This document shows, in pieces, positions 2,949-63,296 of a stretch of DNA of 64,000 nucleotides. Origin of the DNA: Burkholderiales bacterium (GTDB lineage: Bacteria; Pseudomonadota; Gammaproteobacteria; Burkholderiales; JACQAP01); the NCBI GenBank assembly GCA_036274775.1, contig DASUFB010000033.1, positions 16,426 to 80,425 of the forward strand. Direction: 5' to 3'. Numbering within the stretch: the stretch's first letter is position 1; every line of letters starts with the position of its first letter. A program made the translations under genes and the position numbers. Below the pieces are notes generated by a model, which was given only the letters and a program-made list of their open reading frames with translations, did no database searches and was not told the origin of the DNA.

Positions 2949-4306
2949 TGGCGCGCGCGAAAACCGTCTACGCCTGCACCGAATGCGGCGGCCAGACGCT
3001 GAAGTGGCAGGGGCAGTGCCCGCATTGCTCCGCGTGGAACACGCTGGTGGAGACCATCGCCGAGAAGCCCGGCGCATCGCGCTACCAGGCCGTGGCCGAA
3101 TCGAGCCGGCTGCAGAAGCTCGCGGAAGTCGAGGCGCGCGAGGAGCCGCGCAGGCCGACGGGCATCGACGAGCTCGACCGCGTGCTCGGCGGCGGGCTGG
3201 TGGCCGGTGCCGTGGTGCTGATCGGCGGCGATCCCGGCATCGGCAAGTCCACGCTGCTGCTGCAGGCACTGTCGGTCATGGGCGCCGGCTGCAAGGCGCT
3301 CTACGTGAGCGGCGAGGAGTCGGCGCAGCAGATCGCGCTGCGGGCGCGCAGGCTGGCCGTGGATGCGTCCGCGCTGGACCTGCTCGCCGAGATCAACCTC
3401 GAGAAGGTGCTCGCCGTGCTCGGCGCGCAGCGGCCCGACGTGGCCGTCATCGACTCGATCCAGACCCTGTACTCCGAGGCGCTGCAATCGGCGCCGGGCA
3501 GCGTGGCGCAGGTGCGCGAATGCGCCGCGCAGTTGACGCGCTTCGCCAAGTCGACGGGCTGCGCGCTGATGCTGGTCGGCCACGTCACCAAGGAGGGCGC
3601 GCTCGCCGGCCCGCGCGTGCTCGAGCACATGGTCGATGCCGTGCTCTATTTCGAGGGCGACACGCATTCGAGCTTCCGGCTCGTGCGGGCGATCAAGAAC
3701 CGCTTCGGCGCGGTCAACGAGCTCGGCGTCTTCGCCATGACCGAGCGCGGGCTGCGCGGCATCTCCAATCCGTCGGCGCTGTTCCTGTCGCAGCACGGTG
3801 CACAGGTGCCGGGCTCCTGCGTCATGGTGACCCAGGAAGGCAGCCGCCCGCTGCTCGTGGAAGTGCAGGCGCTGGTCGACGAGGCGCACGCACCCAATCC
3901 GCGGCGGCTGTCCGTCGGCCTCGAGCAGAACCGCCTCGCCATGCTGCTCGCCGTGCTGCACCGTCACGCGGGCATCGCGGCGTTCGACCAGGACGTGTTC
4001 GTGAATGCCGTGGGCGGCGTGAAGATAGACGAGCCGGCCGCCGACCTGCCGGTACTGCTGGCGATCGTGTCGTCGCTGCGCGCCAGACCGCTGCCGGAGA
4101 AGCTCGTCGCTTTCGGCGAAATCGGCCTGGCCGGCGAGGTGCGCCCGGTGCAGCGCGGCCAGGAAAGGCTGAAGGAGGCGGCCAAGCTCGGCTTCCGCAT
4201 GGCGATCATCCCGAAGGCCAACGCGCCCAGGGGCCGCATCGAGGGCCTGGAGGTGGTGGCGGTGGAACGGGTGGAGGAGGCGGTCAGAAAGGCCGTGAAT
4301 GCGTGA
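2948..4306 (+). CDS. radA: DNA repair protein RadA/Sms
   Basis: Starts MARAKTVYACTECGGQTLKWQGQCPHCSAWNT (zinc finger). Walker A GGDPGIGKST, KNRFG motif, Lon-like C-terminal domain. The ATG overlaps the alr stop (TGATG). The track ORF from 2786 is an upstream extension. Confidence 0.95.
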   Translation: MARAKTVYACTECGGQTLKWQGQCPHCSAWNTLVETIAEKPGASRYQAVAESSRLQKLAEVEAREEPRRPTGIDELDRVLGGGLVAGAVVLIGGDPGIGKSTLLLQALSVMGAGCKALYVSGEESAQQIALRARRLAVDASALDLLAEINLEKVLAVLGAQRPDVAVIDSIQTLYSEALQSAPGSVAQVRECAAQLTRFAKSTGCALMLVGHVTKEGALAGPRVLEHMVDAVLYFEGDTHSSFRLVRAIKNRFGAVNELGVFAMTERGLRGISNPSALFLSQHGAQVPGSCVMVTQEGSRPLLVEVQALVDEAHAPNPRRLSVGLEQNRLAMLLAVLHRHAGIAAFDQDVFVNAVGGVKIDEPAADLPVLLAIVSSLRARPLPEKLVAFGEIGLAGEVRPVQRGQERLKEAAKLGFRMAIIPKANAPRGRIEGLEVVAVERVEEAVRKAVNA

Positions 4307-4404
4307 ATATCGTGAATAACGTGAATGTCGATCTAGAGCTCTAGGCTTTCTGCGGCATTAGACGTATTCACGACATTTACGATATTCACGCATTCACGGC
4401 CTTT
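4288..4404. repeat. tandem-unit hairpin element, copy A1 (CGTGAATN units)
   Basis: aaaggccgtgaatgcgtgaatatcg (4288-4312) is the perfect reverse complement of 4380-4404. Further imperfect GTGAAT units extend the stem to about 43 bp. The loop contains the palindrome ctagagctctag. The radA stop (4304-4306) lies inside the left arm and the kinase stop (4404-4406) abuts the right arm. Confidence 0.9.
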
Positions 4405-5708
4405 CAATGCAGCGCGAACATCGTCAGCGCCGCGGCCGCGAGAACGGCGCTGCCGATCCAGATCAGCTTGAGGGGGGAGCCGGGAGAGCGCGCGAGCGCC
4501 GGGCCGCCCGCCGGCGCCGCCGGCTGCTGCCAGGTCGTGCTGCCGGAAAGCGTGGAGGCCGCGGCCGAGCGCTTGGCATCCGCCAGCGCCTTCAGGCGCG
4601 CGATCTTCTGTGTTTCCGAGAACTTGTCCAGTTCCTTCTCCATGCCGGTCAGCGCCGCGAGCCTCATGGTCGCATCGAAGGAGTCGAAGGCCTTCGACAG
4701 ACCCAGCGCCGGATTCGTCTGCTCGCTGGCGGAGTCCCGGGCGGGTGCGCCGTCGGGCGCCGTCCCCGCTTCGGCCATCTCCAGGATGCGCGCCTCCTTG
4801 TCCTCCTGGCGCGTCAGCAGCGCGGCGGGCTCGTTGCGCGCCGCTTCCCGGGCGGGCGGCGCGGCCGTCTCCACGGGCGGCGGAGACTCGCCGGCAAGCT
4901 CCGCGCGCGCGCGGCGCAGATCGCCGGCAAGGTCCCGCGCGTGCTGGTAGCGGTCATCGAGGTTCTTGGCGAGCGCCTTGGCGATGATGAAATTCAGGAC
5001 CTCTGGCAGGTCGGGGTTCAGCGTGCGCGGCGCCGGCGGATTGAAGTTCACGGTCTGGTACATGACGCCGTGGATGTTGTCCGCGACGAAGGGCGAGGTG
5101 CCGGTGAGCATCTCGTAGAGCACCACGCCCAGCGAGAAGATGTCCGAGCGCGCGTCCGCGCGTTTTCCCGAGACCTGCTCGGGCGACATGTACTTCGGCG
5201 AGCCGAGGATCATGCCGGTCATGGTCTTGATCTCGTTGTTGCGCATGCGCGCGATGCCGAAGTCGGTGATCTTCACCAGCCCGTCGTCGAGCACCATGAT
5301 GTTGGCGGGCTTGATGTCGCGATGGATGATCTGGCGGTCGTGCGCGAACTGCAGGCCCTCGGCCACCTGCGCACCGATGTCGAGCGCCTGGGGCACGCGG
5401 ATCGGCACGCGCGACTGCAGCATGCGCCGCAGCTCCTGGCCCTCGAGGAACTCCATGGCCATGTAGGCCACCTTATCGCTGCGGCCGATGTCGTAGATGG
5501 TGACGATGTTGCGGTGGGACAGCCCGCCGGCGGCCTTGGCTTCCTGGTAGAAGCGCGCCTCGTATTCCGCGAGTTCGTCCTTGGGCAACGTCAGGTTGAT
5601 GGTCTTGATGGCCACCACGCGGTCCAGGAGCGGGTCACGCGCCTTGTAGACCACGCCCATGGCGCCCTGCCCGAGCTCCGCGATGACCTCGTAGCGTCCC
5701 AGCATCAT
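4404..5708 (-). CDS. Hanks-type Ser/Thr protein kinase, C-terminal tail anchor
   Basis: GQGAMGVVYKA ... AIK, HRDIKPANIM, DFG, SPKYMSPE. Pro/Ala-rich linker and a terminal hydrophobic helix IWIGSAVLAAAALTMFALH. Start taken at MMLGRYEV (5708). The track start at 5777 would overlap the upstream gene by 52 nt. Confidence 0.85.
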   Translation of the reverse strand: MMLGRYEVIAELGQGAMGVVYKARDPLLDRVVAIKTINLTLPKDELAEYEARFYQEAKAAGGLSHRNIVTIYDIGRSDKVAYMAMEFLEGQELRRMLQSRVPIRVPQALDIGAQVAEGLQFAHDRQIIHRDIKPANIMVLDDGLVKITDFGIARMRNNEIKTMTGMILGSPKYMSPEQVSGKRADARSDIFSLGVVLYEMLTGTSPFVADNIHGVMYQTVNFNPPAPRTLNPDLPEVLNFIIAKALAKNLDDRYQHARDLAGDLRRARAELAGESPPPVETAAPPAREAARNEPAALLTRQEDKEARILEMAEAGTAPDGAPARDSASEQTNPALGLSKAFDSFDATMRLAALTGMEKELDKFSETQKIARLKALADAKRSAAASTLSGSTTWQQPAAPAGGPALARSPGSPLKLIWIGSAVLAAAALTMFALH

Positions 5709-6131: not shown

Positions 6132-7442
6132 CTAGTTGAACTTGTGCTTGATGCGGATCTTCTGGTCCGCCTTGACGTCGATCACCTGCGTGTAGACCGG
6201 GAAGTTGCCGTTGCGGATCTCTATCTTGCGCCTGCCCGGCGTGACCTCCACCTCGTTGACCGGCGGACTCACGCCGATGCGGTCGCCGTCGACGTAGACC
6301 TCCCCCCAGGGCGCCACGGCCAGCGTGACGAGCGCCGTGCCCGCCGGCACGGGCGGGGCGGCCTCGGGTGCCGCGGGCGCAGCGGCACGCGAGAAGAACG
6401 CGAAGGGCGACGGCTTGGCCTCTTTTTTCTTTTCCTCCGCACCCACGACCGGCGCGGCATCCTCGTGGGCGGCAATGGCCGGTTCCGGCGCCGCGGCCGG
6501 CATCCCCGCCTCCGTCCTGGAGCGGGCGGTGCGTGGCTTTTTCTCCTTCTCCGCGTGCCTGTGCGCCGCGGGCGGCGCGGCTGGCGCGGCTTCGGCCAGA
6601 CGGGCGGCGACTCGCGACTTCCCCGGCGTGCCGGCGGCGTCCGCGTCCGGCGCCGGCACGGCCGCGACCTCGCCGTGGCCGAGCAGGTTGACGATGACCG
6701 CCAGCACGAAGGCGCCGGCCGAGACCGTGGCGGTGCCGAAGGCGATGGTACGGTTGTTGAGCCAGGGCTCGATGCGCGCGAGCAGCGGCCGGCGGGGCGC
6801 GGTGGCGTTGGCGACGGTCGCCGTCGACGCCTGGCGCTTGCCCTCGCGGGACGAGTCGTACGCCCGCTCGGCGGGGGAGCGCACGCCGTTGGCCCGCGTG
6901 CCGCTGTAGCCCACGCTGTAGACCTCGTGCTCGCGCACGTGCTTGTCTGTGCGCGAACCCTCGTACTTGAACAGCTTGGAATAGCCCTCGGAAATATGCG
7001 AGACGACTTCGTAGTAGGAACGCGAGACCAGGATCTGGCCGGGCTGGGCGAAGCCCATCACGCGCTGCGCGACGTTGATGCCGTCGCCGATGATGTTGGG
7101 CTGGCTGTTCAGGTCGCGCACCAGGCGCACCGGCCCGAGGTTGATGCCCACGCGCGCCGGCAGCCTCGGCGGCTCGCCCTGCCTGGGCGCGAAGGCTTCG
7201 CGCAGGCTCATGGCCACGAACAGCGCGTCCTCGGGGTCGCCCAGGAAGTTGATCGCCACGCCGTCGCCGGTGTCCAGGATGATGCGGTCGTTCACCGCGA
7301 TGTCGTGGATCGCCTCGGCGATCAAGGCGTTGAAGCTGTCCTTGAGCTGGATCTGCTCCGACACCGGCTTCTTGGAATATTCCGCGATGTCCAGGAACAG
7401 CACGCTGCAGATGAACGTGCGGTTGGCCCGCTCGGGCATCAT
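6132..7442 (-). CDS. class III nucleotidyl-cyclase-homology domain / TM / PEGA-domain protein
   Basis: FLDIAEYS ... DTGDGVAINF ... IGDGINVAQRV matches cyclase-homology-domain (CHD) metal-Asp and Asn/Arg positions. One TM (FGTATVSAGAFVLAVIVNLLG), an Ala/Pro/Lys-rich linker, and a C-terminal PEGA-like beta domain (VAPWGEVYVDGDRIGVSP...IEIRNGNF). Start MMPERANR at 7442 is preceded by GGGAGGA. Confidence 0.75.
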   Translation of the reverse strand: MMPERANRTFICSVLFLDIAEYSKKPVSEQIQLKDSFNALIAEAIHDIAVNDRIILDTGDGVAINFLGDPEDALFVAMSLREAFAPRQGEPPRLPARVGINLGPVRLVRDLNSQPNIIGDGINVAQRVMGFAQPGQILVSRSYYEVVSHISEGYSKLFKYEGSRTDKHVREHEVYSVGYSGTRANGVRSPAERAYDSSREGKRQASTATVANATAPRRPLLARIEPWLNNRTIAFGTATVSAGAFVLAVIVNLLGHGEVAAVPAPDADAAGTPGKSRVAARLAEAAPAAPPAAHRHAEKEKKPRTARSRTEAGMPAAAPEPAIAAHEDAAPVVGAEEKKKEAKPSPFAFFSRAAAPAAPEAAPPVPAGTALVTLAVAPWGEVYVDGDRIGVSPPVNEVEVTPGRRKIEIRNGNFPVYTQVIDVKADQKIRIKHKFN

Positions 7443-7760: not shown

Positions 7761-9392
7761 TTGAAGTCCACGAGCCCCTACGACGCCGGCCTCGACCGCA
7801 ATCCGGCGAACTACGCGCCGCTGTCCCCGCTGTCCTTCCTGGCGCGTGCGGCCGAGGTCTTTCCCGAACGGCCGGCGATCATCCACGGCACCTACCGGGC
7901 CACGTGGGCCGAGACCTACCGGCGCTGCCGGCGGCTCGCCGGCGCATTGGCCCGTCGCGGCGTCGGGGCCGGCGATACGGTGGCCGTCCTGGCCCCCAAC
8001 ACGCCGGCCATGTACGAGGCGCATTTCGGCGTGCCCATGACGGGCGCGGTGCTCAACACGCTGAATACGCGGCTGGATGCCGACGCGATCGCCTTCATGC
8101 TCCGGCACGGCGAGGCCAGGGTGCTGCTGACCGACCGCGAGTTTTCGCCGACCATCTCGGCGGCGCTCGCGAAAGCCGCGCGGCCGATCCTGGTGGTGGA
8201 CATCGACGACCCGCTCGGTCCCGGGGGCGAGCCCCTGGGCGAGTGCGACTACGAGGCCTTCCTGGAGACCGGCGACCCGGATTTCGCCTGGGCCCTGCCG
8301 TCCGACGAGTGGAACGCCATCGCGCTGTCCTATACGTCCGGGACGACGGGCAATCCCAAGGGCGTGGTGACGCACCATCGGGGGGCCTACCTGAACGCGG
8401 TCGGCAACATCGTGACCTGGGCCATGCCGCATTTCCCGGTCTACCTGTGGACGCTGCCGATGTTCCACTGCAACGGCTGGTGCTTCCCCTGGACGCTGGC
8501 GGCGCTGGCAGGCACCAGCGTGTGCCTGCGCCGCGTCGAGGCCAGGGCCGTGTTCGATGCCATTCGCGAGCACCGCGTCACCCATTTCTGCGGCGCACCC
8601 GTGGTGCACAACGCGTTGATCAACGCGCCGGCCGAGCTGCGTGCCGGCATTTCGCACAAGGTGCACGCCATGATCGCCGGGGCTGCGCCTCCCCAGGCCG
8701 TCATCGAGGGTGCGGAGCGCATCGGCGTGGATCTCACGCACGTCTACGGTCTGACCGAGGTCTACGGCCCGGCGTCCGTCTGCGCGAAGCACCCGGAATG
8801 GGACCGGTTGCCGCCCGCCGAGCGTGCCGCGCTGAACGGCCGGCAGGGCGTGCGCTACGAGATGCAGGAAGCCATGGACGTGCTCGACCCGAAGACCATG
8901 CGGCCCGTGCCGCGCGACGGCCAGACCATGGGCGAGATTTTCTTCCGCGGCAACATCACCATGAAGGGCTACCTGAAGAACCCGCAGGCCACCGCCGAGG
9001 CCTTCGCGGGCGGCTGGTTCCATACCGGCGACCTCGCCGTGATCGACGCCGCCGGCTACGTGAAGATCCGCGACCGCTCCAAGGACATCATCATCTCCGG
9101 CGGCGAGAACGTCTCCACCATAGAGATCGAGGACGTACTGTACAGCCACCCCGGCATCCTCGAGGCGGCGGTGGTGGCGCGTCCCGACGAGAAGTGGGGC
9201 GAGACGCCGTGCGCCTTCGTCGCGCTCAAGCCGGGCGCGGAGCCGCTCACCGAGCAGGAGGTCATCGCCTGGTGCCGCGCGCGCCTCGCGCATTTCAAGT
9301 GCCCGCGCAAGGTCGTCTTCGGCCCGCTGCCGAAGACCTCGACCGGGAAAATCCAGAAGAACGTGCTGCGCGAGCGGGCAAAAGGTCCGTGA
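7761..9392 (+). CDS. acyl-CoA synthetase (AMP-forming, medium-chain type)
   Basis: AMP-binding motifs YTSGTTGNPKG, GYGLTE-like YGLTEVYG, TGD, ISGGENV. TTG start at 7761 with GGAG 5 nt upstream. The N-terminal 48 codons of the track ORF have no support. Confidence 0.85.
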   Translation: MKSTSPYDAGLDRNPANYAPLSPLSFLARAAEVFPERPAIIHGTYRATWAETYRRCRRLAGALARRGVGAGDTVAVLAPNTPAMYEAHFGVPMTGAVLNTLNTRLDADAIAFMLRHGEARVLLTDREFSPTISAALAKAARPILVVDIDDPLGPGGEPLGECDYEAFLETGDPDFAWALPSDEWNAIALSYTSGTTGNPKGVVTHHRGAYLNAVGNIVTWAMPHFPVYLWTLPMFHCNGWCFPWTLAALAGTSVCLRRVEARAVFDAIREHRVTHFCGAPVVHNALINAPAELRAGISHKVHAMIAGAAPPQAVIEGAERIGVDLTHVYGLTEVYGPASVCAKHPEWDRLPPAERAALNGRQGVRYEMQEAMDVLDPKTMRPVPRDGQTMGEIFFRGNITMKGYLKNPQATAEAFAGGWFHTGDLAVIDAAGYVKIRDRSKDIIISGGENVSTIEIEDVLYSHPGILEAAVVARPDEKWGETPCAFVALKPGAEPLTEQEVIAWCRARLAHFKCPRKVVFGPLPKTSTGKIQKNVLRERAKGP

Positions 9393-9514
9393 ATGTCGTG
9401 CCTGACTTCGCCGGGTACCGGGCTCTGCCCATCGATAACGTGAATATCGATCCTGGGATCGGGTGCTGTTCCGGCCTCACGTATTCACGACATTCACGAT
9501 ATTCACGGCTTTTG
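9380..9514. repeat. tandem-unit hairpin element, copy A2 (CGTGAATN units, rearranged)
   Basis: Left aaaaggtccgtgaatgtcgtg. Internal unit cgtgaatatcga (9439-9450). Right arm cacgtattcacgacattcacgatattcacggctttt. The acs stop TGA (9390-9392) is the TGA of the first GTGAAT unit. Confidence 0.8.
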
Positions 9515-10344: not shown

Positions 10345-11273
10345 TGGCTATCCTCGTCATTGCCGAGCACGACAACGCTTCGGTCAAGCCGGCCACGCTG
10401 CATGCGGTCAACGCTGCGGGCAGGATAGGCCGCGACATCGACATCCTGGTGGCGGGCCACCAGTGCGCGGGCGCCGCTGCGGCCGCCGCCGCCATCGCTG
10501 GCGTGAGGAAGGTCAGGGTGGCGGACGCGCCCCACTACGGCGAGGGCCTCGCCGAAAACCTGGCCGCGCTGGTCGTCGCGCTCGCGCGCGACTACAGCCA
10601 CGTGCTCGCGGCCTCGACCAGCTCGGGCAAGAACGTCATGCCGCGCGTGGCGGCGCTGCTCGACGTGGCCCAGGTCTCGGACATCGTCAAGGTGGAATCG
10701 CCGGACACCTTCGTGCGGCCGATCTATGCGGGCAACGCGCTCGCCACGGTGCAGTCGATCGACCCGATCAAGATCGTCACGGTGCGCACGACGGGCTTCG
10801 ACGCCGCGCCGGCGACCGGCGGCTCGGCCGCGACCGAGAACGTCGCGGCCGGCGCCGACAGCGGGCTTTCCTCGCTCGTGGGCCGCGAACTCACGAAATC
10901 GGCGCGCCCCGAGCTGACCTCGGCGCGCGTCATCGTGTCGGGCGGGCGCGGCATGGGCAGCGGCGAGAACTTCAGGATCCTCGAGGCGCTGGCCGACAAG
11001 CTCGGCGCCGCGGTGGGCGCGTCGCGCGCAGCGGTGGATTCCGGCTTCGTGCCGAACGACTACCAGGTCGGCCAGACCGGCAAGATCGTCGCCCCCGAGC
11101 TCTACATAGCCGTGGGCATCTCCGGTGCGATCCAGCACTTGGCGGGAATGAAGGACAGCAAGGTCATCGTCGCCATCAACAAGGACGCTGAAGCGCCTAT
11201 CTTCCAGGTCGCGGACTACGGGCTCGTCGCGGACCTGTTCCAGGCCGTGCCGGAGCTGACCTCGCAGCTTTGA
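10344..11273 (+). CDS. etfA: electron transfer flavoprotein alpha subunit
   Basis: [11 protein letters not shown]... start overlaps the etfB stop (TGATG). FAD-binding C-terminal block [19 protein letters not shown]. Confidence 0.95.
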
Positions 11274-11455
11274 AGGGCCTGAGCCACAGAGGACACAAAG
11301 AGCACAGAGAAAACCTGGAGAAGAGTCACAGGCGGAAGCATGCGGGCGGGCACGGCCCGATCGGGCAACGGGCTGCGACGGACAATCACCGGCCAAGAAC
11401 GAAATCCCATCTCCTGAATTTTCTCTGTGCTCTCCGTGTCCTCTGTGGCTGAAGA
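11271..11455. repeat. tandem-unit hairpin element, copy B (CACAGAG/ACAAAGAG units)
   Basis: 31-nt arms 11283-11313 (gccacagaggacacaaagagcacagagaaaa) and 11419-11449 (reverse complement, 2 mismatches). 105-nt centre. Begins at the etfA stop (TGAAGGGCC). Confidence 0.9.
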
Positions 11456-22025: not shown

Positions 22026-24512
22026 ATGGCAGAACAATCCCCTTTCATCGTTCGCAAGGTCGCCGTCCTCGGCGCCGGCGTCATGGGCGCGCAGATCGCC
22101 GCCCACCTCGTCAACGCCGGCGTGGAAGCGGTGCTGTTCGAGCTGCCGGCGAAGGAGGGCGATCCGAACGCGAACGTGCGCAAGGCGATCGACGGCCTGA
22201 AGAAGCTGGAGCCGAGCCCGCTCGCCACGCAGCCGAAGGCCGACTTCATCCAGCCCGCGAACTACGACGACGACCTCGGCCTGCTGAAGGACTGCGACGT
22301 CGTCATCGAGGCCATCTCCGAGCGCATGGACTGGAAGAAGGCCTTGTACGAGAAAGTGGCGCCGCACCTGGGCGGGGGCACCATATTCGCGAGCAACACC
22401 TCGGGGCTGTCCATCAACTCCCTGGCCGAGGCGATGCCGGCCCATGCAAGGGCGCGCTTCTGCGGCGTGCATTTCTTCAACCCGCCGCGCTACATGCATC
22501 TCGTGGAGCTGATCCCGGGGCGCTCGACCGATCCGGCCATCCTCGACCGGCTCGAGCAGTTCCTGGTCACCGCGCTGGGCAAGGGCGTGGTGCGCGCCAG
22601 GGACACGCCGAACTTCATCGCCAACCGCGTGGGCGTATTCTCCATCCTCGCGGCCTTCCACCATACGCGGCAGTTCGGGCTGGGCTTCGACGAGGTCGAT
22701 GCGCTGACCGGCTCGCTGATCGGCCGGCCCAAGAGCGCGACCTACCGCACCGCGGACGTGGTCGGCCTGGATACGCTGGCGCACGTGGTCAACACGATGA
22801 AGGACGCGCTGCCCGATGACCCGTGGCACAAGTACTACGAGGTGCCGGACTGGTTCCGGCGGTTGCTCGAGCAGCAGGCCTTCGGGCAGAAGTCCGGCCG
22901 CGGCGTCTACCAGAAGCACGGCAAGGACATCCTGGTCCTCGACCTGAAGGGCAACGGCTACCGGCCGTCGGCGGGCGAGGCGGACGCCTCGGTGGTCGAG
23001 ATCCTGAAGAACAGGAACGTCGCCGAGCGTTTCGCGCTACTGCGCGCATCCGCGCATCCGCAGGCGCAATTCATGTGGGCGGCGTTCCGCGACATGCTGC
23101 ACTACTGCGCCTGCCATCTCGAGGCCGTCGCCGACAATGCCCGCGACCTGGATTTCGCGGTCCGCTGGGGTTTCGGCTGGAACCAGGGGCCGTTCGAGAT
23201 CTGGCAGGCGGCGGGCTGGCAGCAGATGGCGAAATGGATCGCGGAGGACATCGCCGCGGGCAAGACCATGGCGTCCGTGCCCCTGCCGGGCTGGGCGACC
23301 GAGCCCGGCCGCGACGGCGTGCACGAGCCCGACGGATCGTGGAGTGCCGCGACCAGGAGCTACCAGCCGCGCTCGCGGCTCCCGGTCTACCGCCGCCAGC
23401 CCTTCCCGGACCGCCTGATCAGCGAGCCTGCCGTCTACGGCAGCACCGTCTTCGAGACCGACGCCGTGCGCATGTGGACCACCGGCGACGACATCGGCGT
23501 GGTCGGCTTCAAGTCCAAGATGCACGCGATCGGCGAGGACGTGCTGGACGGCGTCATGCAGGCGATCGACGAATCGGAGCGGCGCTTCAAGGGCATGATC
23601 ATCTGGCAGACCGAGCCGCCGTTCTCGGTGGGTGCCAACCTGTCGGGCGGGGGAAGCCGCAAGAGCGAGCAGAAGCCCTCGGCGTTCGCTTCGATGATGA
23701 AGAAGTTCAAGCGCGAGGCCGAGTCCGCGATCCTGAAGGCGGCCTTCAAGCTGAACGTCGCCGACTCGCTGATGGCCGGCCGGCTGGAGAAGGTCGAGCA
23801 GGTCGTCGAGCAGTTCCAGGCGACCTCGCAGGCGCTGCGTTACTGCATGGTCCCCACCATCGCGGCCGTTGATGGCATGGCGCTCGGCGGCGGCTGCGAG
23901 TTCACCATGCACTGCGACCGCGCAGTGGCCTCGCTGGAGAGCTACATCGGCCTGGTCGAGGCGGGGGTGGGCCTGTTGCCGGCGGGCGGCGGCTGCAAGG
24001 AATTCGCGATGCGCGCCAATGCCGACGCCAGGGGCGGGGATGCTTTCCCGTTCCTGAAGAATTATTTCCAGAACGTGGCCACGGCACAGATCGGCAAGAG
24101 CGCCGAGCATTCGCGCGAGCTGGGCTTCCTGCGGGCGTCCGACCGCATCGTCATGAACCGCTTCGAGCTGCTGTACGTGGCGAAGGCCGAGCTGAATGCC
24201 ATGGCCGACGCCGGCTACCGGCCGCCGCTGAGAGCCCGCGGCATTCCCGCGGCCGGCCGCAGCGCCATCGCCACCTTCAAGATGGCCATGGAGAACATGC
24301 TGGCCGGGCACTACATCTCCGAGCACGATTTCCTGATCGGCTCCAGGGTCGCCTACGTCATGTGCGGCGGCGACGTCGAGCCCGGCACGCCGGTCACCGA
24401 GGACTGGTACCTCGATCTCGAGCGCAGGTGCTTCATGGAGCTGATCGCGACGGAGAAAACACAAGCCCGGATCGAGCACATGCTCAAGACCGGTAAACCA
24501 CTAAGGAACTAG
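22026..24512 (+). CDS. fadB: bifunctional 3-hydroxyacyl-CoA dehydrogenase / enoyl-CoA hydratase
   Basis: VAVLGAGVMGAQIA NAD fold at the N-terminus and a crotonase domain at the C-terminus (AAVDGMALGGGCEF). ATG at 22026 preceded by GAAGGAA. Confidence 0.9.
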   Translation: MAEQSPFIVRKVAVLGAGVMGAQIAAHLVNAGVEAVLFELPAKEGDPNANVRKAIDGLKKLEPSPLATQPKADFIQPANYDDDLGLLKDCDVVIEAISERMDWKKALYEKVAPHLGGGTIFASNTSGLSINSLAEAMPAHARARFCGVHFFNPPRYMHLVELIPGRSTDPAILDRLEQFLVTALGKGVVRARDTPNFIANRVGVFSILAAFHHTRQFGLGFDEVDALTGSLIGRPKSATYRTADVVGLDTLAHVVNTMKDALPDDPWHKYYEVPDWFRRLLEQQAFGQKSGRGVYQKHGKDILVLDLKGNGYRPSAGEADASVVEILKNRNVAERFALLRASAHPQAQFMWAAFRDMLHYCACHLEAVADNARDLDFAVRWGFGWNQGPFEIWQAAGWQQMAKWIAEDIAAGKTMASVPLPGWATEPGRDGVHEPDGSWSAATRSYQPRSRLPVYRRQPFPDRLISEPAVYGSTVFETDAVRMWTTGDDIGVVGFKSKMHAIGEDVLDGVMQAIDESERRFKGMIIWQTEPPFSVGANLSGGGSRKSEQKPSAFASMMKKFKREAESAILKAAFKLNVADSLMAGRLEKVEQVVEQFQATSQALRYCMVPTIAAVDGMALGGGCEFTMHCDRAVASLESYIGLVEAGVGLLPAGGGCKEFAMRANADARGGDAFPFLKNYFQNVATAQIGKSAEHSRELGFLRASDRIVMNRFELLYVAKAELNAMADAGYRPPLRARGIPAAGRSAIATFKMAMENMLAGHYISEHDFLIGSRVAYVMCGGDVEPGTPVTEDWYLDLERRCFMELIATEKTQARIEHMLKTGKPLRN

Positions 24513-24524
24513 TGCCTACATCCC

Positions 24525-24698
24525 ATCACGAAGACACGAAGGACACGAAGGAACACGAAGAAAAGCAACAGAAGGTATCTGTGTGCCACGCCTTCAACAG
24601 GCCCCTCTTGCAGCGACGAAAATTTTGCCGACGAAATTGTTCCATGCTGCGCGTTTGCTCTTCTTCGTGCGTCTTCGTGTCCTTCGTGTCTTCGTGAT
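24525..24698. repeat. tandem-unit hairpin element, copy C (CACGAAGR units)
   Basis: atcacgaagacacgaaggacacgaag (24525-24550) is the perfect 26-bp reverse complement of 24673-24698. The arms continue imperfectly to about 40 nt. About 90-nt centre. Starts 12 nt after the fadB stop. Confidence 0.92.
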
Positions 24699-24728
24699 GA
24701 GAAGTAAATAGATTGAGAGGTGTAGATC

Positions 24729-28079: not shown

Positions 28080-29288
28080 GTGATGGCTTCCGGGGCCGGC
28101 CACGGCATCCTGCGTGCACGCGACGGCCAAGAGGCGCGCGTCACCAGCGCCGAGCTGTTCTTCGACCTGATCTATGCGTTCGCCGTCACGCAGCTTTCGC
28201 ACCACCTGCTGCACGACCTGACCCTGGCGGGCGCGCTGCAGACGCTCGTCCTCTGGATGGCGGTCTGGCTGGGCTGGCAGTACACCTGCTGGGTGACCAA
28301 CTGGTTCGATCCCGACGCCATGCCCATCCGCGTGATGCTGCTGGCCGTCATGCTCGTCGGGCTGCTGATGTCGTCGGCGCTGCCCGAAGCTTTCGAAGAA
28401 CGCGGCCTGGTGTTCGCGTGCTGCTATGCCGGCATCCAGGTCGGGCGCACCCTCTACGTGCTGCTGGCGCTGGGCGGCTCGCACGCACTGACGCGCAACT
28501 TCCAGCGTATCTTCGGCTGGCTGCTGATCTCCGCGGCGTTCTGGATCTCGGGCGGCCTGCAGCACGGGGAGGCGCGCCTCGCGCTGTGGGTGATCGCCGT
28601 GCTGTGCGAGTACCTGTCGCCGATGATCGGCTTCCGCCTGCCGGGGCTGGGCGCGTCGAAGAGCTCCGACTGGACCATAGAAGGCGGCCATCTGGCCGAA
28701 CGCAACCAGCTCTTCGTGATGGTGGCGCTGGGCGAATCCATCCTCGTGACCGGCGCCACGATCGCCGGAACGGGGCATTGGGAGGCCCCGATCCTCGTCG
28801 CGTTCGTGGTGGCGTTCCTGGGCAGCGTGGCGATGTGGTGGATGTATTTCGACACCAGCAGCGAGGCCGGCACGCACGCGATCACGCGCTCGGACGATCC
28901 CGGGCTCATCGGCTCCTGGTTCCACTACGTGCATGCCGTCATCATCGCGGGCATCATCGTCTCGGCCGTGGCCGACGAGCTCTACCTGGCGCATCCCGAC
29001 GGGCACATGGAGATGAAACATGTCGCGGCGCTGGTCGGCGGCCCGGCGCTGTACGTGCTGGGCAACGCGATCTACAAGCGCATCGTGTACGGGCGCCTGC
29101 CGCTGTCGCACCTGGCCGGGCTCGCGTTGCTCGCAGCGCTCGTGCCGCTCGCCTGGACGACCGATCTGCTGATGGTCGGCGGGCTGTCGACGCTGGTCAT
29201 GCTGGTCGTGGCGACATGGGAGGCGCTGTCGCGGCGCTCGATCGCGCGAGGAAAAGGGGCCGAGGATCGAGGGCCGGGGGCCGAGTGA
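28080..29288 (+). CDS. low-temperature-requirement LtrA-family membrane protein
   Basis: ELFFDLIYAFAVTQLSH motif and about 10 TM helices. The C-terminal tail ARGKGAEDRGPGAE is encoded by the repeat arm listed next. Confidence 0.8.
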   Translation: MMASGAGHGILRARDGQEARVTSAELFFDLIYAFAVTQLSHHLLHDLTLAGALQTLVLWMAVWLGWQYTCWVTNWFDPDAMPIRVMLLAVMLVGLLMSSALPEAFEERGLVFACCYAGIQVGRTLYVLLALGGSHALTRNFQRIFGWLLISAAFWISGGLQHGEARLALWVIAVLCEYLSPMIGFRLPGLGASKSSDWTIEGGHLAERNQLFVMVALGESILVTGATIAGTGHWEAPILVAFVVAFLGSVAMWWMYFDTSSEAGTHAITRSDDPGLIGSWFHYVHAVIIAGIIVSAVADELYLAHPDGHMEMKHVAALVGGPALYVLGNAIYKRIVYGRLPLSHLAGLALLAALVPLAWTTDLLMVGGLSTLVMLVVATWEALSRRSIARGKGAEDRGPGAE

Positions 29289-29332
29289 GCTTGCCCTTGA
29301 TCACCTAACTCCTCACCCCTCGCTCCTCGCGC
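29244..29332. repeat. degenerate tandem-unit hairpin element, copy E (GCGAGGR units)
   Basis: gcgcgagga (29244-29252) pairs perfectly with tcctcgcgc (29324-29332). Inner GAGG-type units pair imperfectly with ctcctcacccctcgc. The left arm lies inside the last codons of ltrA. The ETF-QO stop is 6 nt beyond the right arm. Confidence 0.4.
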
Positions 29333-29337
29333 GTCAC

Positions 29338-42136: not shown

Positions 42137-44041
42137 ATGTACGATTTCGTCTACAAGCACAAGCGCTGGCTGCAGATCGCGCTGCTGGTGCTCATCGTTC
42201 CGCCGTTCGCCCTGTTCGGCATCGATTTCTATTTCCGCAACACGGACGCCGGCGGCGGCGTCGCCAAGGTCGGCGATTCGCGCATCTCCGAAGCCGAGTA
42301 CTCGCAGGCGCTGCGTCAGGCCCAGGACAGGATGCGCGAGATGATGCGCGACAATCCGAACCCGGCCATGCTCAACAGCCCGCAGCTTCGGGAGTCGGTG
42401 CTGAACGATCTCATCGAGCGCCGCCTCACGCTGGCGCGCGCCATGGGCAGCGGCATGACGGTTTCCGATGCCGAGTTGCAGAAGATGATCGCCGGCGTGG
42501 CGGCCTTTCACGACGACTCCGGCAAGTTCTCGCGCGAGCGCTACCACCAGCTCCTGCAGGGACAGGGCATGACGCCGGCAGCCTTCGAGAACCAGGCCCG
42601 CAGCAACATCCTGCTCGACCAGGTGCAGGGCATCTACGCAGGCGCCGCCTTCGCGCCCGACTCGGTTGCCGACCGTCTGATCCGGATCCGCGGGCAGGAA
42701 CGGGAAGTGAGCCAGGCGGTATTCAGCCCGGCCGACTACCGCAAGCAGGCCGCCGTGTCCGATGCCGATGCGCAGAAATACTACACGGAGCACAAGAACG
42801 AGTTCCTCGTGCCCGAGCGCGTGCGCGCGGAGTTCGTCGTGCTGTCGCTCGAGGCGTTCCAGCGCAACGTCGCGGTGAGCGACGAGGAGATAAGGAAGGT
42901 CTACGAGGAGAACCTGAGCCGCTACCAGACCGGGGAGGAGCGCCGTGCGAGCCACATCCTGATCGCGGTGGCGGCCTCCGCCACGCCGGCCGAGAGGGCC
43001 GCGGCCAAGGCGCAGGCCGAAGACATCCTCAAGCAGGTCCGGGCGAACCCCAGGAAATTCGGCGAGCTGGCGGCGAAGTTCTCCAAGGACCCCGGCTCGG
43101 CGGAGAAGGGCGGCGACCTCGGCTTCTTCGCGCGCGGCCTCATGGTGAAGCCCTTCGACGACGCCGCGTTCTCCATGAAGGTCGGAGACATCGCCGGGCC
43201 GGTCGAGACGCAGTACGGCTACCACATCATCCGGCTCGACGCGATCAAGCCCACGCAGACCACGCCGCTGGAAGCGGTGCGCGCGCAGATCGTCGAGGAA
43301 ATCCGCAAGCCCAAGGTCTCCAAGGCGTTCGCGGAGGCTGCCGACACCTTCAACAACACGGTCTACGAGCAGTTCGACAGCCTGCAGCCGGTGGCCGACG
43401 CGCTGAAGCTCACCGTGCAGAAAAGCGACTGGGTGAGCCGCACCGGCGGCGCCCAGAACCCGCTGCTCAACAACGACAAGCTGCTCGCGGCGCTGTTCTC
43501 GGACGAGGTCCTGAAGAGCAGGCACAACACCTCGGCCATCGAGGTGCAGCCGAACATGCTGGTGGCGGCGCGCGTGATCGAGCACAAGGACGCCGAAAGC
43601 CTGCCCTTCGAGCAGGTGCGCAAGGACATCGTGCAGCACCTCACCGACCGCGCGGCCGTCGCGCTGGCGGAAAAGGGGGGGCGCGCGGTCCTGGAGAAGC
43701 TCTCCAGGGGCGAGGCGGTGGCCGAGAAATGGTCGCCGCCGCAGACGGTGACGCTGCAGAAGCGACAGGGCCTGCATCCCGAGGCGGCGCAGTCGGTGTT
43801 CGGCGCCGATACCTCGAAGCTTCCCGCCTACGTGGGCGTTGCGGTCGCCGACGGCCGCTACGTGATCTACCGGATCAGCAAGGTCAGGGACGTGACGGAG
43901 GTCAGCGCCGACCAGCGCAAGGCGCTGGCGAAGCAGCTCGCGCAGATGCTCGGCCAGGAGCAGTACATCGCCTACCTCGCCACGCTGCGGGAGCGCGCCG
44001 ACGTCAAGATCGACAGGAAGAAGCTGGATCAGGGATCCTGA
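42137..44041 (+). CDS. ppiD: periplasmic chaperone / peptidyl-prolyl isomerase PpiD
   Basis: MYDFVYKHKRWLQIALLVLIVPPFALFG N-terminal anchor. Parvulin block GDLGFFARGLMVKPFDDAAF...GYHII. Confidence 0.9.
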   Translation: MYDFVYKHKRWLQIALLVLIVPPFALFGIDFYFRNTDAGGGVAKVGDSRISEAEYSQALRQAQDRMREMMRDNPNPAMLNSPQLRESVLNDLIERRLTLARAMGSGMTVSDAELQKMIAGVAAFHDDSGKFSRERYHQLLQGQGMTPAAFENQARSNILLDQVQGIYAGAAFAPDSVADRLIRIRGQEREVSQAVFSPADYRKQAAVSDADAQKYYTEHKNEFLVPERVRAEFVVLSLEAFQRNVAVSDEEIRKVYEENLSRYQTGEERRASHILIAVAASATPAERAAAKAQAEDILKQVRANPRKFGELAAKFSKDPGSAEKGGDLGFFARGLMVKPFDDAAFSMKVGDIAGPVETQYGYHIIRLDAIKPTQTTPLEAVRAQIVEEIRKPKVSKAFAEAADTFNNTVYEQFDSLQPVADALKLTVQKSDWVSRTGGAQNPLLNNDKLLAALFSDEVLKSRHNTSAIEVQPNMLVAARVIEHKDAESLPFEQVRKDIVQHLTDRAAVALAEKGGRAVLEKLSRGEAVAEKWSPPQTVTLQKRQGLHPEAAQSVFGADTSKLPAYVGVAVADGRYVIYRISKVRDVTEVSADQRKALAKQLAQMLGQEQYIAYLATLRERADVKIDRKKLDQGS

Positions 44042-44219
44042 AGGCCGTGAATGCGTGAATATCGTGAATGTCGTGAATACGTGAAAATACCGGCCAGAGA
44101 TTTCAGTGCAGGCTGAAGTCCGGCGGGCGGAAGCCCGATCAACGCTACGCCGGAGCTGATGTCGATGCGGAGCCCTGGGCTTCTGCGATATTCACGGTAT
44201 TCACGGTATTCACGGCTTC
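44040..44219. repeat. tandem-unit hairpin element, copy A3 (CGTGAATN units)
   Basis: Left arm has 5 units (gtgaatg/gtgaata/gtgaatg/gtgaata/gtgaaaa, 44040-44091). Right arm has 3 units (atattcacggtattcacggtattcacggcttc, 44185-44219). 93-nt centre. Bounded by the ppiD stop and the fabI stop. Confidence 0.88.
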
Positions 44220-55206: not shown

Positions 55207-55386
55207 ATCCAAAGGTGAAAGGGTGAAAGGGTGAAAGGTGGAAAGGGAAAAGGTGAAAGGTGAAAGGTGGAAAGGGAAAAGGTGAAAGGTGAAAGGTGAA
55301 AGGTGAAAGCAAAGGCAAAGACGGGCTGCGACGGGGGTTTGTTCCCGCGATTTTCTTTTCTTTCGGCTTTGAACTTTCCCCTTTGA
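55207..55386. repeat. tandem-unit hairpin element, copy D (GGTGAAAG units, strongly asymmetric)
   Basis: Left arm 55211-55320 has about 15 units (9x GTGAAAG, 2x GTGGAAAG, 2x GGAAAAG, plus variants), including an exact 29-nt duplication (55231-55259 = 55260-55288). Right arm 55351-55386 is a degenerate complement (ttttcttttctttcggctttgaactttcccctttg). Confidence 0.85.
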
Positions 55387-63225: not shown

Positions 63226-63296
63226 GCGTCTGTCCTTTTCATCGAGGACCCGGATCAGACGCAATGAAGCCTACGCGTCCGCTTGCGGGACTGTCC

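What the first reader, a model, noticed from the sequence alone, without database searches (positions are those of the whole stretch)
24525..24698. Seven gene-end hairpin elements whose arms are tandem 7-9 nt units, each copy with its own unit flavour
Seven sites share one architecture: 4288-4404, 9380-9514, 11271-11455, 24525-24698, 29244-29332, 44040-44219 and 55207-55386. The left arm is 2-15 tandem copies of a short unit. A variable centre of about 30-105 nt follows. The right arm is the reverse complement of the same units. Arm pairing is perfect over 25 bp (4288-4312 / 4380-4404) and 26 bp (24525-24550 / 24673-24698). It is 31 bp with 2 mismatches at 11283-11313 / 11419-11449. The unit differs between copies: CGTGAATN at three loci, CACGAAGR, CACAGAG/ACAAAGAG, GGTGAAAG and GCGAGGR. 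All fit a loose RYGAAN/RYGAGG theme, and both arms of a given copy always carry the same flavour. So the hairpin is preserved while the sequence drifts, by concerted or compensatory change. Every copy starts inside a stop codon or within 12 nt of one, both between convergent genes and inside operons (etfA|acdh, fadB|fadA, rnhA|dnaQ). I do not recognise this as REP/BIME, ERIC, Correia, attC or CRISPR. The closest analogue I know is the eukaryotic foldback transposon, whose inverted termini are also built from tandem short repeats.
Basis: seen in the sequence. Interest (0 to 1): 0.78.

Follow-up and report, generated by a model that had tools for sequence, protein, structure and literature searches.

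The report
Gene-end hairpins with tandem-repeat arms
The seven sites are real copies of a widespread, barely described class of small DNA palindromes whose two arms are short arrays of 7- or 9-base units, sitting just after stop codons; a one-flavour version was reported in Xanthomonas in 2015, and what makes or uses them is still unknown.

Summary
All seven sites are inverted repeats whose arms are tandem 7-9 nt units. Four are very strong (fold z -6 to -14). Three are degenerate (sites 2, 5 and 7).

They are not private to this window. The source is an uncultured soil Burkholderiales MAG. Related MAGs carry about 90 further copies in a few conserved families: TGAAAGGCC+(CGTGAATRY)n, TCAC/GAAC+(CRCRRAGR)3+AAAA, AAAGGTG and GRCCGAG.

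- The same strand version of the unit is always the 5' arm (61 of 61 array pairs).
- Stop codons lie a median 7.5 nt before the arm.
- Divergent spacers are avoided.
- There are no target-site duplications, shared centres or nearby transposases.

Each copy's A/G pattern and 8/9-nt unit lengths are mirrored on its two arms (0.88 vs 0.49 identity; 0 of 20000 permutations). G.U mismatches are no commoner than A.C, so pairing looks maintained on DNA rather than selected on the sense mRNA. Arms are far more conserved than synonymous sites. Centres decay or are swapped.

The closest published analogue is the Xanthomonas GGGAATC inverted heptamer pairs (Rehm 2015). This is not REP, MITE, attC, CRISPR or an intrinsic terminator.

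Verdict: a real feature, a new multi-flavour variant of a poorly known kind. The mechanism is inferred only.

The parts
4287..4326 (.). Site 1 left arm: GAAAGGCC + 4 CGTGAATN(N) units. The radA stop (4304-4306) is the TGA of the second unit.
   Evidence: I2, 40 nt, 93%; z -14
4327..4365 (.). Site 1 centre (39 nt)
4366..4405 (.). Site 1 right arm (ATTCACG units + GGCCTTTC). The TCA at 4404-4406 is the stop of the convergent Ser/Thr kinase gene.
9380..9400 (.). Site 2 left arm: AAAAGGTC + 2 CGTGAAT-type units. The acyl-CoA synthetase stop (9390-9392) lies inside the first unit. A further stray unit lies at about 9439-9452.
   Evidence: (z -4.2)
9480..9514 (.). Site 2 right arm (3 ATTCACGNN units + GGCTTTTG), upstream of etfB
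11282..11313 (.). Site 3 left arm (CACAGAGGA / CACAAAGAG / CACAGAGAAAA), 8 nt after the etfA stop
   Evidence: I3, 32 nt, 94%; z -6.4
11419..11450 (.). Site 3 right arm, 57 nt before the acyl-CoA dehydrogenase start
24517..24568 (.). Site 4 left arm: TCACGAAGA CACGAAGGA CACGAAGGAA CACGAAGAAAAGCAA, starting 4 nt after the fadB stop (24510-24512)
   Evidence: I1, 52 nt, 88%; z -10.7
24569..24654 (.). Site 4 centre (86 nt). No detectable similarity to the centres of the orthologous elements in relatives.
24655..24706 (.). Site 4 right arm (CTTCGTG units), ending 22 nt before the fadA start (24729)
29243..29285 (.). Site 5 left arm (GCGAGGA / GGCCGAG 7-nt units). It encodes the last 12 residues of LtrA (stop at 29286-29288).
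   Evidence: (I13)
29304..29333 (.). Site 5 right arm (CTCCTCA / CCCCTCG / CTCCTCG), 4 nt from the stop of the convergent ETF-QO gene (29338)
44040..44088 (.). Site 6 left arm: GAAGGCC + 5 CGTGAAT-type units. The ppiD stop is at 44039-44041.
   Evidence: (z -7.3)
44186..44219 (.). Site 6 right arm (3 x TATTCACGG + CTTC), abutting the stop of convergent fabI (44219)
55211..55309 (.). Site 7 left array: 13.6 x AAAGGTG, starting 4 nt after the rnhA stop (55204-55206)
55343..55386 (.). Site 7 decayed right arm (CTTT-periodic, complement of AAAGnnn), 13 nt before the dnaQ start
   Evidence: z -2.2

Best explanation
The sites are copies of a dispersed family of small non-coding DNA palindromes.

Anatomy. 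Each copy has a conserved outer terminus and then 2-14 tandem units of 9 or 7 nt. A centre of 8-250 nt follows that is free to vary. The mirror-image arm closes the element.

Shown:
- The elements fall into a few conserved sequence families shared by many loci and genomes of an uncultured soil Burkholderiales clade.
- The same architecture, with other units, occurs in other lineages. These include the GGGAATC type described in Xanthomonas.
- The same strand version of the unit is always the 5' arm.
- The elements lie in co-directional or convergent spacers, starting at or just after the stop codon.
- The two arms of a copy mirror each other's private variants.

Inferred mechanism:
- The element is kept as a palindrome at the DNA level. 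Slippage changes the number or length of units. Intrastrand template switching (quasipalindrome correction) or gene conversion then copies each change onto the other arm.
- Material is sometimes imported from other copies, which swaps centres or arm types.
- Copies persist only where they are tolerated: in transcribed gene-end spacers, and with the G-rich version transcribed first. With that order, a C-rich, Rho-attracting tract is never exposed before the hairpin closes.

Inferred consequence:
- In mRNA the element forms a 25-60 bp stem that begins 0-12 nt after the stop codon.
- It should therefore act like a REP element. It would block 3' exonucleases, hinder the terminating ribosome or offer an RNase III site, and so uncouple neighbouring cistrons.
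- It is not a classical terminator.
For: Reality and family:
- Searches confirm the seven sites.
- About 90 tandem-arm hairpins were found in many flavours.
- Element GC is 0.43-0.60 against 0.61-0.69 for the genomes.

Polarity:
- 61 of 61 inverted array pairs defined by Tandem Repeats Finder (TRF) have the G-rich version on the left. Five more were ambiguous and none was reversed.
- The left arm has G>C in 84 of 90 elements. The purine fraction falls from 0.63 to 0.36 across the centre.

Position:
- 39 elements lie in co-directional spacers, 12 in convergent and 3 in divergent ones. The stop codon lies a median 7.5 nt before the arm.
- In the CGTGAAT family, 32 of 54 incoming stops occupy the TGA slot of unit -1, 0 or +1.

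Mirrored private variants:
- Arm identity is 0.88 within elements against 0.49 between elements, with 0 of 20000 permutations reaching it.
- L123 vs L172 show 3 double changes in 32 pairs.
- The window and L203 differ by a paired 1-nt indel.

DNA level rather than sense RNA:
- 41 G.U vs 51 A.C mismatches in 50 gene-oriented elements. This rejects a 2:1 G.U excess at p = 2e-5.

Constraint on arms, not centres:
- L123 vs L172: arms about 85% identical while 4-fold sites differ at 51% and the centre is unalignable.
- L149 vs L206: the GAACCACGGAGGACACGG terminus is 18/18 identical at 4-fold divergence 0.51.

Exchange of parts:
- L172 and L206 have centres 74% identical but different arm types. 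L172 and L207 have near-identical arms but unrelated centres.
- L206 and L002 differ by only 0.11 at 4-fold sites, yet the whole element differs. Coding identity falls towards the spacer.

Published parallel: PMC4692102.
Against: - No transcript, protein or DNA-structure data exist for these organisms. Every functional step is inference.
- Strong conservation of the unit sequence (only A/G positions vary) is not explained by self-correction alone. It points to an unidentified trans-acting factor or to selection on sequence.
- Most CRCRRAG elements have exactly three units. That is not what free slippage predicts.
- The Rho explanation of the polarity is untested.
- Equal G.U and A.C counts rest on 92 mismatches in ungapped arm alignments.
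- In several operons the right arm ends 3-10 nt before a start codon that has no Shine-Dalgarno sequence. This hints at a translational role that the model does not cover.
Confidence: 0.45

Rival explanations
1. RNA-level cis-regulatory hairpin. Selection acts on the transcript to keep a long stem right after the stop codon. The stem could serve as an mRNA stabiliser, an RNase III processing site, a device coupling translation of adjacent genes, or an attenuator. The tandem units would be incidental.
For: - Arms and their pairing are conserved while centres decay.
- The stem starts 0-12 nt after the stop and ends 3-40 nt before the next start.
- The fadB|fadA spacer carries such a hairpin, with quite different units, in about 19 of 33 metagenome lineages with a spacer of at least 60 nt. 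It does so also in the window and six further relatives.
- Only transition-type (A/G) variation occurs in the units, as in RNA helices.
Against: - There is no G.U excess over A.C in the sense orientation (41:51).
- The same elements serve convergent gene pairs (12 of 54) as well as operon junctions.
- It does not explain the tandem units, the conserved unit sequences shared by unrelated loci, the absolute polarity, or the wholesale replacement of the element between strains about 95% identical.
- In other lineages the same spacer is filled by REP-like palindromes or is only 1-30 nt long.
Confidence: 0.2
2. Non-autonomous mobile element (MITE or foldback type). The tandem units would be repeated binding sites for a transposase encoded elsewhere. 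The flavours would be subfamilies.
For: - The same arm consensus, including irregular unit lengths, occurs at non-orthologous loci and in different genomes. Compare window 4288 with 44040. Compare the window fadB|fadA element with L027 2479-2672. TCACCACAGAGGCACAGAGGA occurs in L002, L027, L109 and L121.
- Presence/absence differs between relatives. L002 2637-2784 is filled, against a 2-4 nt spacer in L001 and the window. The L004 fadB|fadA spacer is 36 nt.
- Element GC is lower than genome GC.
- The termini are the best conserved part.
Against: - No target-site duplication beyond chance.
- Centres of 85 copies share nothing apart from leftover units.
- No recurrent transposase-like gene lies within 4 kb of 118 loci.
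- There are no paired copies on viral contigs and no plasmid match.
- Many flavours coexist in one 64-kb window.
- The G-rich-first polarity is common to unrelated flavours. Independent terminal inverted-repeat families would not be expected to share it.
Confidence: 0.17
3. Pure mutational by-product. Ordinary gene-end hairpins or simple repeats grow by replication slippage and palindrome correction, with no function and no trans-acting factor.
For: - Unit number is variable (2-14).
- Paired indels occur.
- Mismatches are strand-symmetric.
- The interior is decayed, with a purine gradient.
- Heptamer slippage has been proposed for bacteria (quoted in PMC4692102 and PMC4679880).
Against: - Arms are much more conserved than 4-fold sites.
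- The same families occur in many genomes.
- The polarity is absolute.
- Units are almost only 9 or 7 nt.
- The CRCRRAG family has a fixed three-unit layout.
Confidence: 0.1
4. G-quadruplex-forming repeats, as proposed for the Xanthomonas and Nostoc GGGNATC arrays, or ordinary intrinsic terminators.
For: - Some relatives' fadB|fadA elements are of the GGGAATC, GGGATTC or GGGAACG type.
- CGTGAAT elements end in GGCCTTTC, a short T run.
Against: - The window's units (CGTGAAT, CACGAAG, CACAGAG, AAAGGTG) have no runs of three G, so they cannot form G4.
- None of the seven elements is called by the terminator scan, and terminator-like sites are not enriched.
- The stems are 25-52 bp and AT-rich, and most lack a U tract.
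Confidence: 0.04

Closest known systems
GGGAATC / GGGGA(C/T)T heptameric repeat arrays of Xanthomonas and Nostoc (Rehm et al. 2015, PLoS One, PMC4692102)
   Same: - Tandem 7-nt units in intergenic DNA.
- In Xanthomonas, 70-75 cases per genome of two arrays in convergent orientation, with the G-rich strand on + at the left and on - at the right.
- Arrays lie on average 28 nt from the ORF on their 5' side, typically 0-50 nt after the stop codon, some overlapping it.
- Rare between divergent genes.
- Length and sequence vary between Xcc and Xac at the same gene pair.
- Transcribed, with no link to IS elements.
- GGGAATC-type hairpins occupy the very same fadB|fadA spacer in some metagenome lineages.
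   Different: - That paper treats one flavour and reads it as a G-quadruplex motif.
- Here most units are 9 nt and cannot form G4.
- Several flavours coexist in one genome.
- The fixed polarity across flavours, the mirrored private variants, the DNA-level mismatch symmetry and the exchange of arms and centres were not described there.
REP / BIME / REPIN elements with RAYT transposases
   Same: - Small extragenic palindromic repeats at gene 3' ends and inside operons, hundreds per genome, forming hairpins in mRNA.
- REPINs are two inverted repeats around a variable spacer.
- From memory: REPs stabilise upstream mRNA, and REPs within 15 nt of a stop codon stall ribosomes (Liang, Rudd and Deutscher 2015).
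   Different: - A REP unit is itself a 20-40 nt imperfect palindrome with a GT(A/G)G or CGTC head (PMC2817692; PMC3733652, abstract).
- Here the arms are direct arrays of 7-9 nt units with no self-complementarity and no such head.
- The Xanthomonas REP (GTAGGAGCGCGCTCGCGCGCGA) is a different sequence from its heptamer arrays.
- No RAYT gene was seen.
Cyanobacterial STRR heptanucleotide repeats and TAACTGA repeats of Beggiatoaceae
   Same: - Tandem heptamers concentrated in intergenic DNA, of unknown origin and function (PMC4679880).
- From memory: STRR arrays lengthen both strands of helix P12 of RNase P RNA in heterocystous cyanobacteria (Vioque 1997; title seen, paper not held). That would be a tandem-unit helix.
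- Heptamer-arm hairpins with the same polarity were seen in a Chroococcidiopsis locus (L048).
   Different: - TAACTGA sets are direct repeats upstream of start codons, with only one inverted case out of 170.
- STRR arrays are mostly described as solo arrays.
- The unit sequences are different.
Eukaryotic foldback transposons / bacterial MITEs
   Same: Long inverted termini built from short tandem repeats around a variable middle. Non-coding.
   Different: - No target-site duplications, no shared internal sequence and no associated transposase.
- Placed in register with stop codons.

Membership tests
Xanthomonas/Nostoc-type heptamer array pairs (Rehm 2015) | Tandem short units in two arrays of convergent orientation on opposite strands | tested here: met
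   61 inverted pairs, all with the G-rich version on the left.
Xanthomonas/Nostoc-type heptamer array pairs (Rehm 2015) | [quoted passage not shown] | tested here: met
   median 7.5 nt; 39 co-directional, 12 convergent, 3 divergent. Also.
Xanthomonas/Nostoc-type heptamer array pairs (Rehm 2015) | Unit GGGNATC with at least 4 G-tracts, able to form a G-quadruplex | tested here: not met
   The window's units CGTGAAT, CACGAAG, CACAGAG, AAAGGTG and GCGAGGA lack G3 tracts, and most are 9 nt.
REP/BIME/REPIN | Repeat unit is a 20-40 nt imperfect palindrome with a GT(A/G)G or CGTC head | tested here: not met
   The arms are direct arrays of 7-9 nt units with no such head. REP consensus sequences were read in PMC2817692.
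REP/BIME/REPIN | Cognate RAYT (Y1 transposase) gene in the genome, flanked by the repeats | not testable with these tools
   Only 8-kb pieces of MAGs were available. No recurrent transposase-like family was found within 4 kb of 118 loci.
MITE / foldback transposon | Terminal inverted repeats | tested here: met
MITE / foldback transposon | Target-site duplication flanking the element | tested here: not met
   direct flanking repeats of 2-6 nt are no more frequent than in permuted flanks (78 elements).
MITE / foldback transposon | Copies share internal sequence derived from a parent element | tested here: not met
   centres of 85 copies share only leftover units. The sole full match is one locus seen in two samples.
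Intrinsic (Rho-independent) terminator | Short GC-rich stem, 3-8 nt loop, run of T | tested here: not met
   none of the seven elements is called, and terminator-like sites are not above shuffle expectation.
Any Rfam family | Match at the gathering score | tested here: not met
   only tRNAs and a fluoride riboswitch; only sub-threshold miRNA-precursor look-alikes.
CRISPR array / integron attC | Direct repeats separated by unique spacers, or cassette-borne attC with an integrase context | tested here: not met
   The units are contiguous and inverted between arms. The hosts are housekeeping operons: radA, etfBA-acdh, fadBA, rnhA-dnaQ.

The most novel reading that the evidence does not exclude
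A dedicated, still unknown machinery recognises or writes the units. One possibility is a sequence-specific nuclease or recombinase. Another is templated addition of unit arrays to both 3' ends of a break at a gene end, followed by joining with filler DNA.

That would explain several things at once:
- the absolute 5'-arm polarity across flavours;
- the discrete, conserved unit families;
- the units of exactly 9 or 7 nt;
- the lack of target-site duplications;
- the unrelated centres;
- the register with stop codons.
Probability: 0.12. Interest if true: 0.9.

Novelty: new variant of a known kind. Interest (0 to 1): 0.62.

Why it matters
Short tandem heptamer repeats have been noticed in bacteria since 1990. 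Their abundance in Xanthomonas, Burkholderia and cyanobacteria has been remarked on several times, with no accepted origin or function.

This clade gives a much richer view of the same phenomenon:
- Many unit sequences share one architecture.
- Most of them cannot form G-quadruplexes, which removes the only functional idea published so far.
- Strand polarity is absolute.
- Arms keep each other's private variants.
- Arm sequence is conserved over distances at which synonymous sites are saturated.
- Whole elements are replaced between near-identical strains.

Extrapolating from 7 copies in 64 kb gives some hundreds per genome. They sit inside core operons such as fadBA, etfBA and rnhA-dnaQ. They are therefore likely to matter for operon expression, for genome stability at palindromes, and for the assembly and annotation of soil MAGs. 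Some supply stop codons or C-terminal tails.

The contrasts found here turn a vague curiosity into testable questions:
- Is pairing kept on DNA or on RNA?
- Is the polarity a Rho filter?
- Is there a trans-acting factor?

Tried and rejected
- Exact look-up of the window's FadA found no contig. The source was identified instead from a 100% identical protein named 'Burkholderiales bacterium'.
- Rfam at gathering and at permissive thresholds: nothing relevant.
- Plasmid BLAST with site 1: no match.
- Viral contig scan: 17 stretches, none with the +/- paired arrangement.
- All-against-all BLAST of centres: only leftover units.
- Clustering of neighbouring ORFs to find an associated transposase: only housekeeping families. 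The largest cluster (ABC-F ATPase) proved not to be an orthologous series next to elements.
- Target-site duplication test: negative.
- Terminator scan: negative.
- The idea that the right flank (AATTTGAAYTGGAG) belongs to the element was dropped. It is conserved only among orthologous fadA leaders.
- The idea that units arose locally from the Shine-Dalgarno region (L004 GCGAAGGAGG vs the window's CACGAAGGA) was dropped. The same arm occurs at a non-orthologous locus in L027.
- My first, GC3-based gene caller picked up antisense ORFs and missed genes. Flank-wise frame calls and Pfam replaced it.
- 4-fold-site figures involving L203 and L205 against the other loci are invalid because of a 1-codon indel.
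- The Vioque 1997 paper on STRR in RNase P RNA is not held.
- Further literature searches found no description of multi-flavour tandem-arm hairpins.
Full report
**1. Is it there?**

Yes. Reading the seven sites shows in each a left run of short tandem units, a non-repetitive middle, and a right run of the reverse-complement units.

The inverted-repeat scan ranks three of them as the longest inverted repeats in the window:
- 24517-24568 / 24655-24706: 52 nt, 88%
- 4287-4326 / 4366-4405: 40 nt, 93%
- 11282-11313 / 11419-11450: 32 nt, 94%

Predicted folds are far more stable than shuffles for sites 1, 4, 6 and 3 (z -14.0, -10.7, -7.3, -6.4). They are only modestly more stable for sites 2, 5 and 7 (z -4.2, -4.1, -2.2), which are degenerate copies.

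Chance does not produce this:
- The pattern CGTGAAT-N1-2-CGTGAAT-N1-2-CGTGAAT occurs 6 times against 0.00 expected.
- Inverted repeats with arms of at least 24 nt number 5 against 0.15 in dinucleotide shuffles.

The window has 67.6% G+C and the elements 44-58%, apart from site 5 at 69%.

**2. Gene context**

Pfam confirms the flanking genes (fadA; ETF-QO by synteny with the 547-aa product of L001):

| Site | Flanking genes | Arrangement |
|---|---|---|
| 1 | radA / Ser-Thr kinase | convergent |
| 2 | acyl-CoA synthetase / etfB | co-directional |
| 3 | etfA / acyl-CoA dehydrogenase | co-directional |
| 4 | fadB / fadA | co-directional |
| 5 | ltrA / ETF-QO | convergent |
| 6 | ppiD / fabI | convergent |
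| 7 | rnhA / dnaQ | co-directional |

The stop-codon claim holds at every site. In two cases the stop is the TGA inside a CGTGAAT unit. At site 5 the left arm encodes the last 12 residues of LtrA, where the nearest relative has a different tail.

**3. It is a family, not a local oddity**

The window's FadA is 100% identical to a protein of a MAG labelled Burkholderiales bacterium.

Most were uncultured soil Burkholderiales/Betaproteobacteria MAGs, often with a + match and a - match 50-200 nt apart.

My own scan of those loci for inverted repeats with periodic arms found about 90 elements with the same architecture, in many unit families:
- CGTGAATRY and CGTGACTRY
- CACAGAGGA, CACGGAGGA, CACGAAGGA, CGCAAAGGA, CGCAGAGGA
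- AAAGGTG
- GGCCGAG / GTACGAG
- GGACTGAG
- GCACTAG / GCGCGAG
- GTGAGGA

Units are 9 nt (50 elements) or 7 nt (20), and almost never 8 (2).

The families have conserved termini and layouts:
- TGAAAGGCC + n x CGTGAATRY ... mirror ... GGCCTTTCA
- TCAC or GAAC + three CRCRRAGR units + AAAA

The same arm occurs at non-orthologous loci. For example, the window's fadB|fadA left arm is nearly the same as L027 2479-2672, which lies between other genes. Window sites 1 and 6 share the identical 26-nt start, including an irregular 8-nt first unit.

So the flavours are subfamilies, not private drift.

**4. Polarity**

In every family the same strand version of the unit forms the 5' arm.
- Among inverted array pairs defined independently with TRF, 61 have the G-rich version on the left, 5 are ambiguous and none is reversed.
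- G exceeds C in the left arm in 84 of 90 elements. The exceptions are CGTGACTGC and CGCAAAG variants that keep their parent family's orientation.
- The purine fraction falls smoothly from 0.63 to 0.36 across the centre, as if the interior were old, decayed arm.
- The same polarity is seen in heptamer-arm hairpins from a Chroococcidiopsis and an Anaerolineae locus that the scan picked up by chance.

**5. Position**

Flank-wise frame calls gave 39 elements between co-directional genes, 12 between convergent genes and 3 between divergent genes.
- The incoming gene's stop lies a median 7.5 nt before the detected arm edge.
- The next start codon lies typically 2-43 nt after the other edge.
- In the CGTGAAT family the stop is in register with the units. 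In 32 of 54 cases it occupies the TGA slot of unit -1, 0 or +1, with TAA or TAG substituting in the terminal pseudo-unit.
- In several operons the right arm ends 3-10 nt before a start codon that has no Shine-Dalgarno sequence.

**6. What it is not**

- No Rfam family matches at gathering or permissive thresholds.
- The elements are not called as intrinsic terminators, and terminator-like sites are not enriched in the window.
- The arms are not REP units. REPs are short palindromes with a GT(A/G)G head, and the Xanthomonas REP differs in sequence from the Xanthomonas heptamer arrays.
- No target-site duplication beyond chance.
- No shared centres among 85 copies.
- No recurrent transposase-like neighbour.
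- No paired copies on viral contigs and no plasmid match.

**7. Evolution at one orthologous site**

The fadB|fadA spacer could be followed through many relatives.

Occupancy:
- It is empty (1-36 nt) in some lineages.
- It holds REP-like palindromes in a few.
- It holds a tandem-arm hairpin in about 19 of 33 metagenome lineages with a spacer of at least 60 nt. It does so also in the window and six further relatives.
- The units are as different as CACGAAGGA, CACGGAGGA, CGCAGAGGA, GTGAGGA, GAGGATT, GCACAAG and GGGAATC / GGGATTC / GGGAACG.
- In each case the left arm starts 0-4 nt after the fadB stop.

Four findings stand out.

*(a) Arms are constrained and centres are not.*
- L123 and L172 differ at 51% of 4-fold sites in fadA. 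Their arms are nevertheless about 85% identical, while the centre is unalignable.
- L149 and L206 share an 18/18 identical terminus at similar divergence.

*(b) Changes are paired.*
- L123 vs L172 have 3 double changes among 32 pairs.
- The window and L203 differ by a 1-nt insertion present in both arms.
- Across 13 CRCRRAG elements, positions not used for detection are 88% identical between the two arms of an element. Between arms of different elements the figure is 49%, and 0 of 20000 permutations reach the observed value.

*(c) Arms and centres have separate histories.*
- L172 and L206 have centres 74% identical (E = 2e-16) but different arm types.
- L172 and L207 have near-identical arms and unrelated centres.

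*(d) Turnover is fast.*
- L206 and L002 differ at only 11% of 4-fold sites, and L203 and L205 at 25%. Yet arm type and centre both differ, and coding identity falls towards the spacer.
- A second presence/absence case is L002 2637-2784, which is filled where L001 and the window have a 2-4 nt spacer.

**8. DNA or RNA?**

If the stem were kept by selection on the sense transcript, G.U mismatches should outnumber A.C.

In 50 elements oriented by their genes I count 41 G.U and 51 A.C. This is compatible with 1:1 and rejects a 2:1 excess at p = 2e-5.

Together with the paired indels, this favours copying between the arms on DNA. Precedents are template switching at quasipalindromes and gene conversion. 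These are established in E. coli and cited here from memory.

Copying alone does not explain why the unit sequence itself is conserved with only A/G positions varying. It also does not explain why the polarity is absolute. Those two points remain unexplained.

A possible reason for the polarity is that a C-rich arm transcribed first would sit unpaired behind the released ribosome and attract Rho. This is untested.

**9. Known relatives**

Rehm et al. 2015 (PMC4692102) described GGGAATC arrays in Xanthomonas:
- about 185 arrays per genome;
- 70-75 cases of two arrays in convergent orientation;
- on average 28 nt from the 5' neighbouring ORF, and within 50 nt after stop codons;
- rare between divergent genes;
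- transcribed;
- variable between Xcc and Xac at the same gene pair;
- function unknown, interpreted as G-quadruplex motifs.

That is the same architecture and placement. GGGAATC-type hairpins also occur at the same fadB|fadA spacer in some metagenome lineages here.

The present family differs:
- The units are mostly 9 nt.
- They cannot form G4.
- Several flavours coexist in one genome.

Polarity across flavours, mirrored private variants, mismatch symmetry and exchange of parts are not in that paper.

Other heptamer repeats (TAACTGA in Beggiatoaceae, STRR in cyanobacteria) are mostly direct, solo arrays.

In what it probably does in mRNA, the element most resembles REP sequences, but it fails the REP membership test.

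**10. Verdict**

It is partly wrong about private drifting flavours and about the foldback transposon being the closest analogue.

I rate it a new multi-flavour variant of a poorly known kind of prokaryotic repeat. Interest is 0.62. The description is solid. The mechanism (DNA-level self-correction plus a tolerance filter, with REP-like consequences in mRNA) is held at about 0.45.

Noticed in passing
L001 9640-9805: The last 39 nt of fadB are duplicated (the second copy has a 1-nt deletion) around an 89-nt insert, immediately upstream of the hairpin element. It looks like a repair or insertion scar.
   Followed up: partly
window 61351-61423: A palindrome with 32-nt arms (94%) and a 9-nt loop, with A and T runs on both sides. 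It resembles a bidirectional terminator and overlaps the end of a tRNA gene (61411-61483, minus strand). It has no tandem units.
   Followed up: no
window 63291-63363 (-): Fluoride riboswitch (Rfam RF01734, 55 bits) upstream of a small minus-strand ORF.
   Followed up: no
window 29243-29288: The C-terminal 12 residues of LtrA (GKGAEDRGPGAE) are encoded by the left-arm units. The nearest relative (L001) ends differently (RRRAHA) and has a decayed left arm.
   Followed up: partly
L015 ~1530-1540; L046 5343-5352 and 6451-6457; L088 3228-3235; L092 ~2531-2540; L116 ~6340-6345: In several operons the right arm ends 3-10 nt before a credible start codon (for example MKIYMIGAGAMGG and MIPELGHFAL) with no Shine-Dalgarno sequence between them.
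   Followed up: partly
L206 vs L002; L203 vs L205 (fadB 3' end, spacer, fadA 5' end): Between strains 92-100% identical in the flanking genes, the whole element differs. Coding identity drops to 0.80-0.85 in the 60 nt next to the spacer.
   Followed up: partly
L142, L150, L154, L162, L174 (fadB|fadA spacer): The same spacer is filled by REP-like palindromes (GTCATCCCGGCGAAGGCCGGGATC...) in other lineages, so the site is permissive for more than one class of palindromic repeat.
   Followed up: no
L048 2775-2889; L070 2296-2415 and 4862-4927: Heptamer-arm hairpins with the same purine-first polarity occur in a Chroococcidiopsis and an Anaerolineae locus, outside the Proteobacteria.
   Followed up: no
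window 55332-55347: The centre of site 7 holds a small GC hairpin followed by a T run (terminator-like) just before the decayed right arm.
   Followed up: no
L027 2479-2672, 3501-3653, 4521-4685: Three consecutive operon junctions about 1 kb apart each carry a CRCRRAG-type element with a different A/G pattern.
   Followed up: partly
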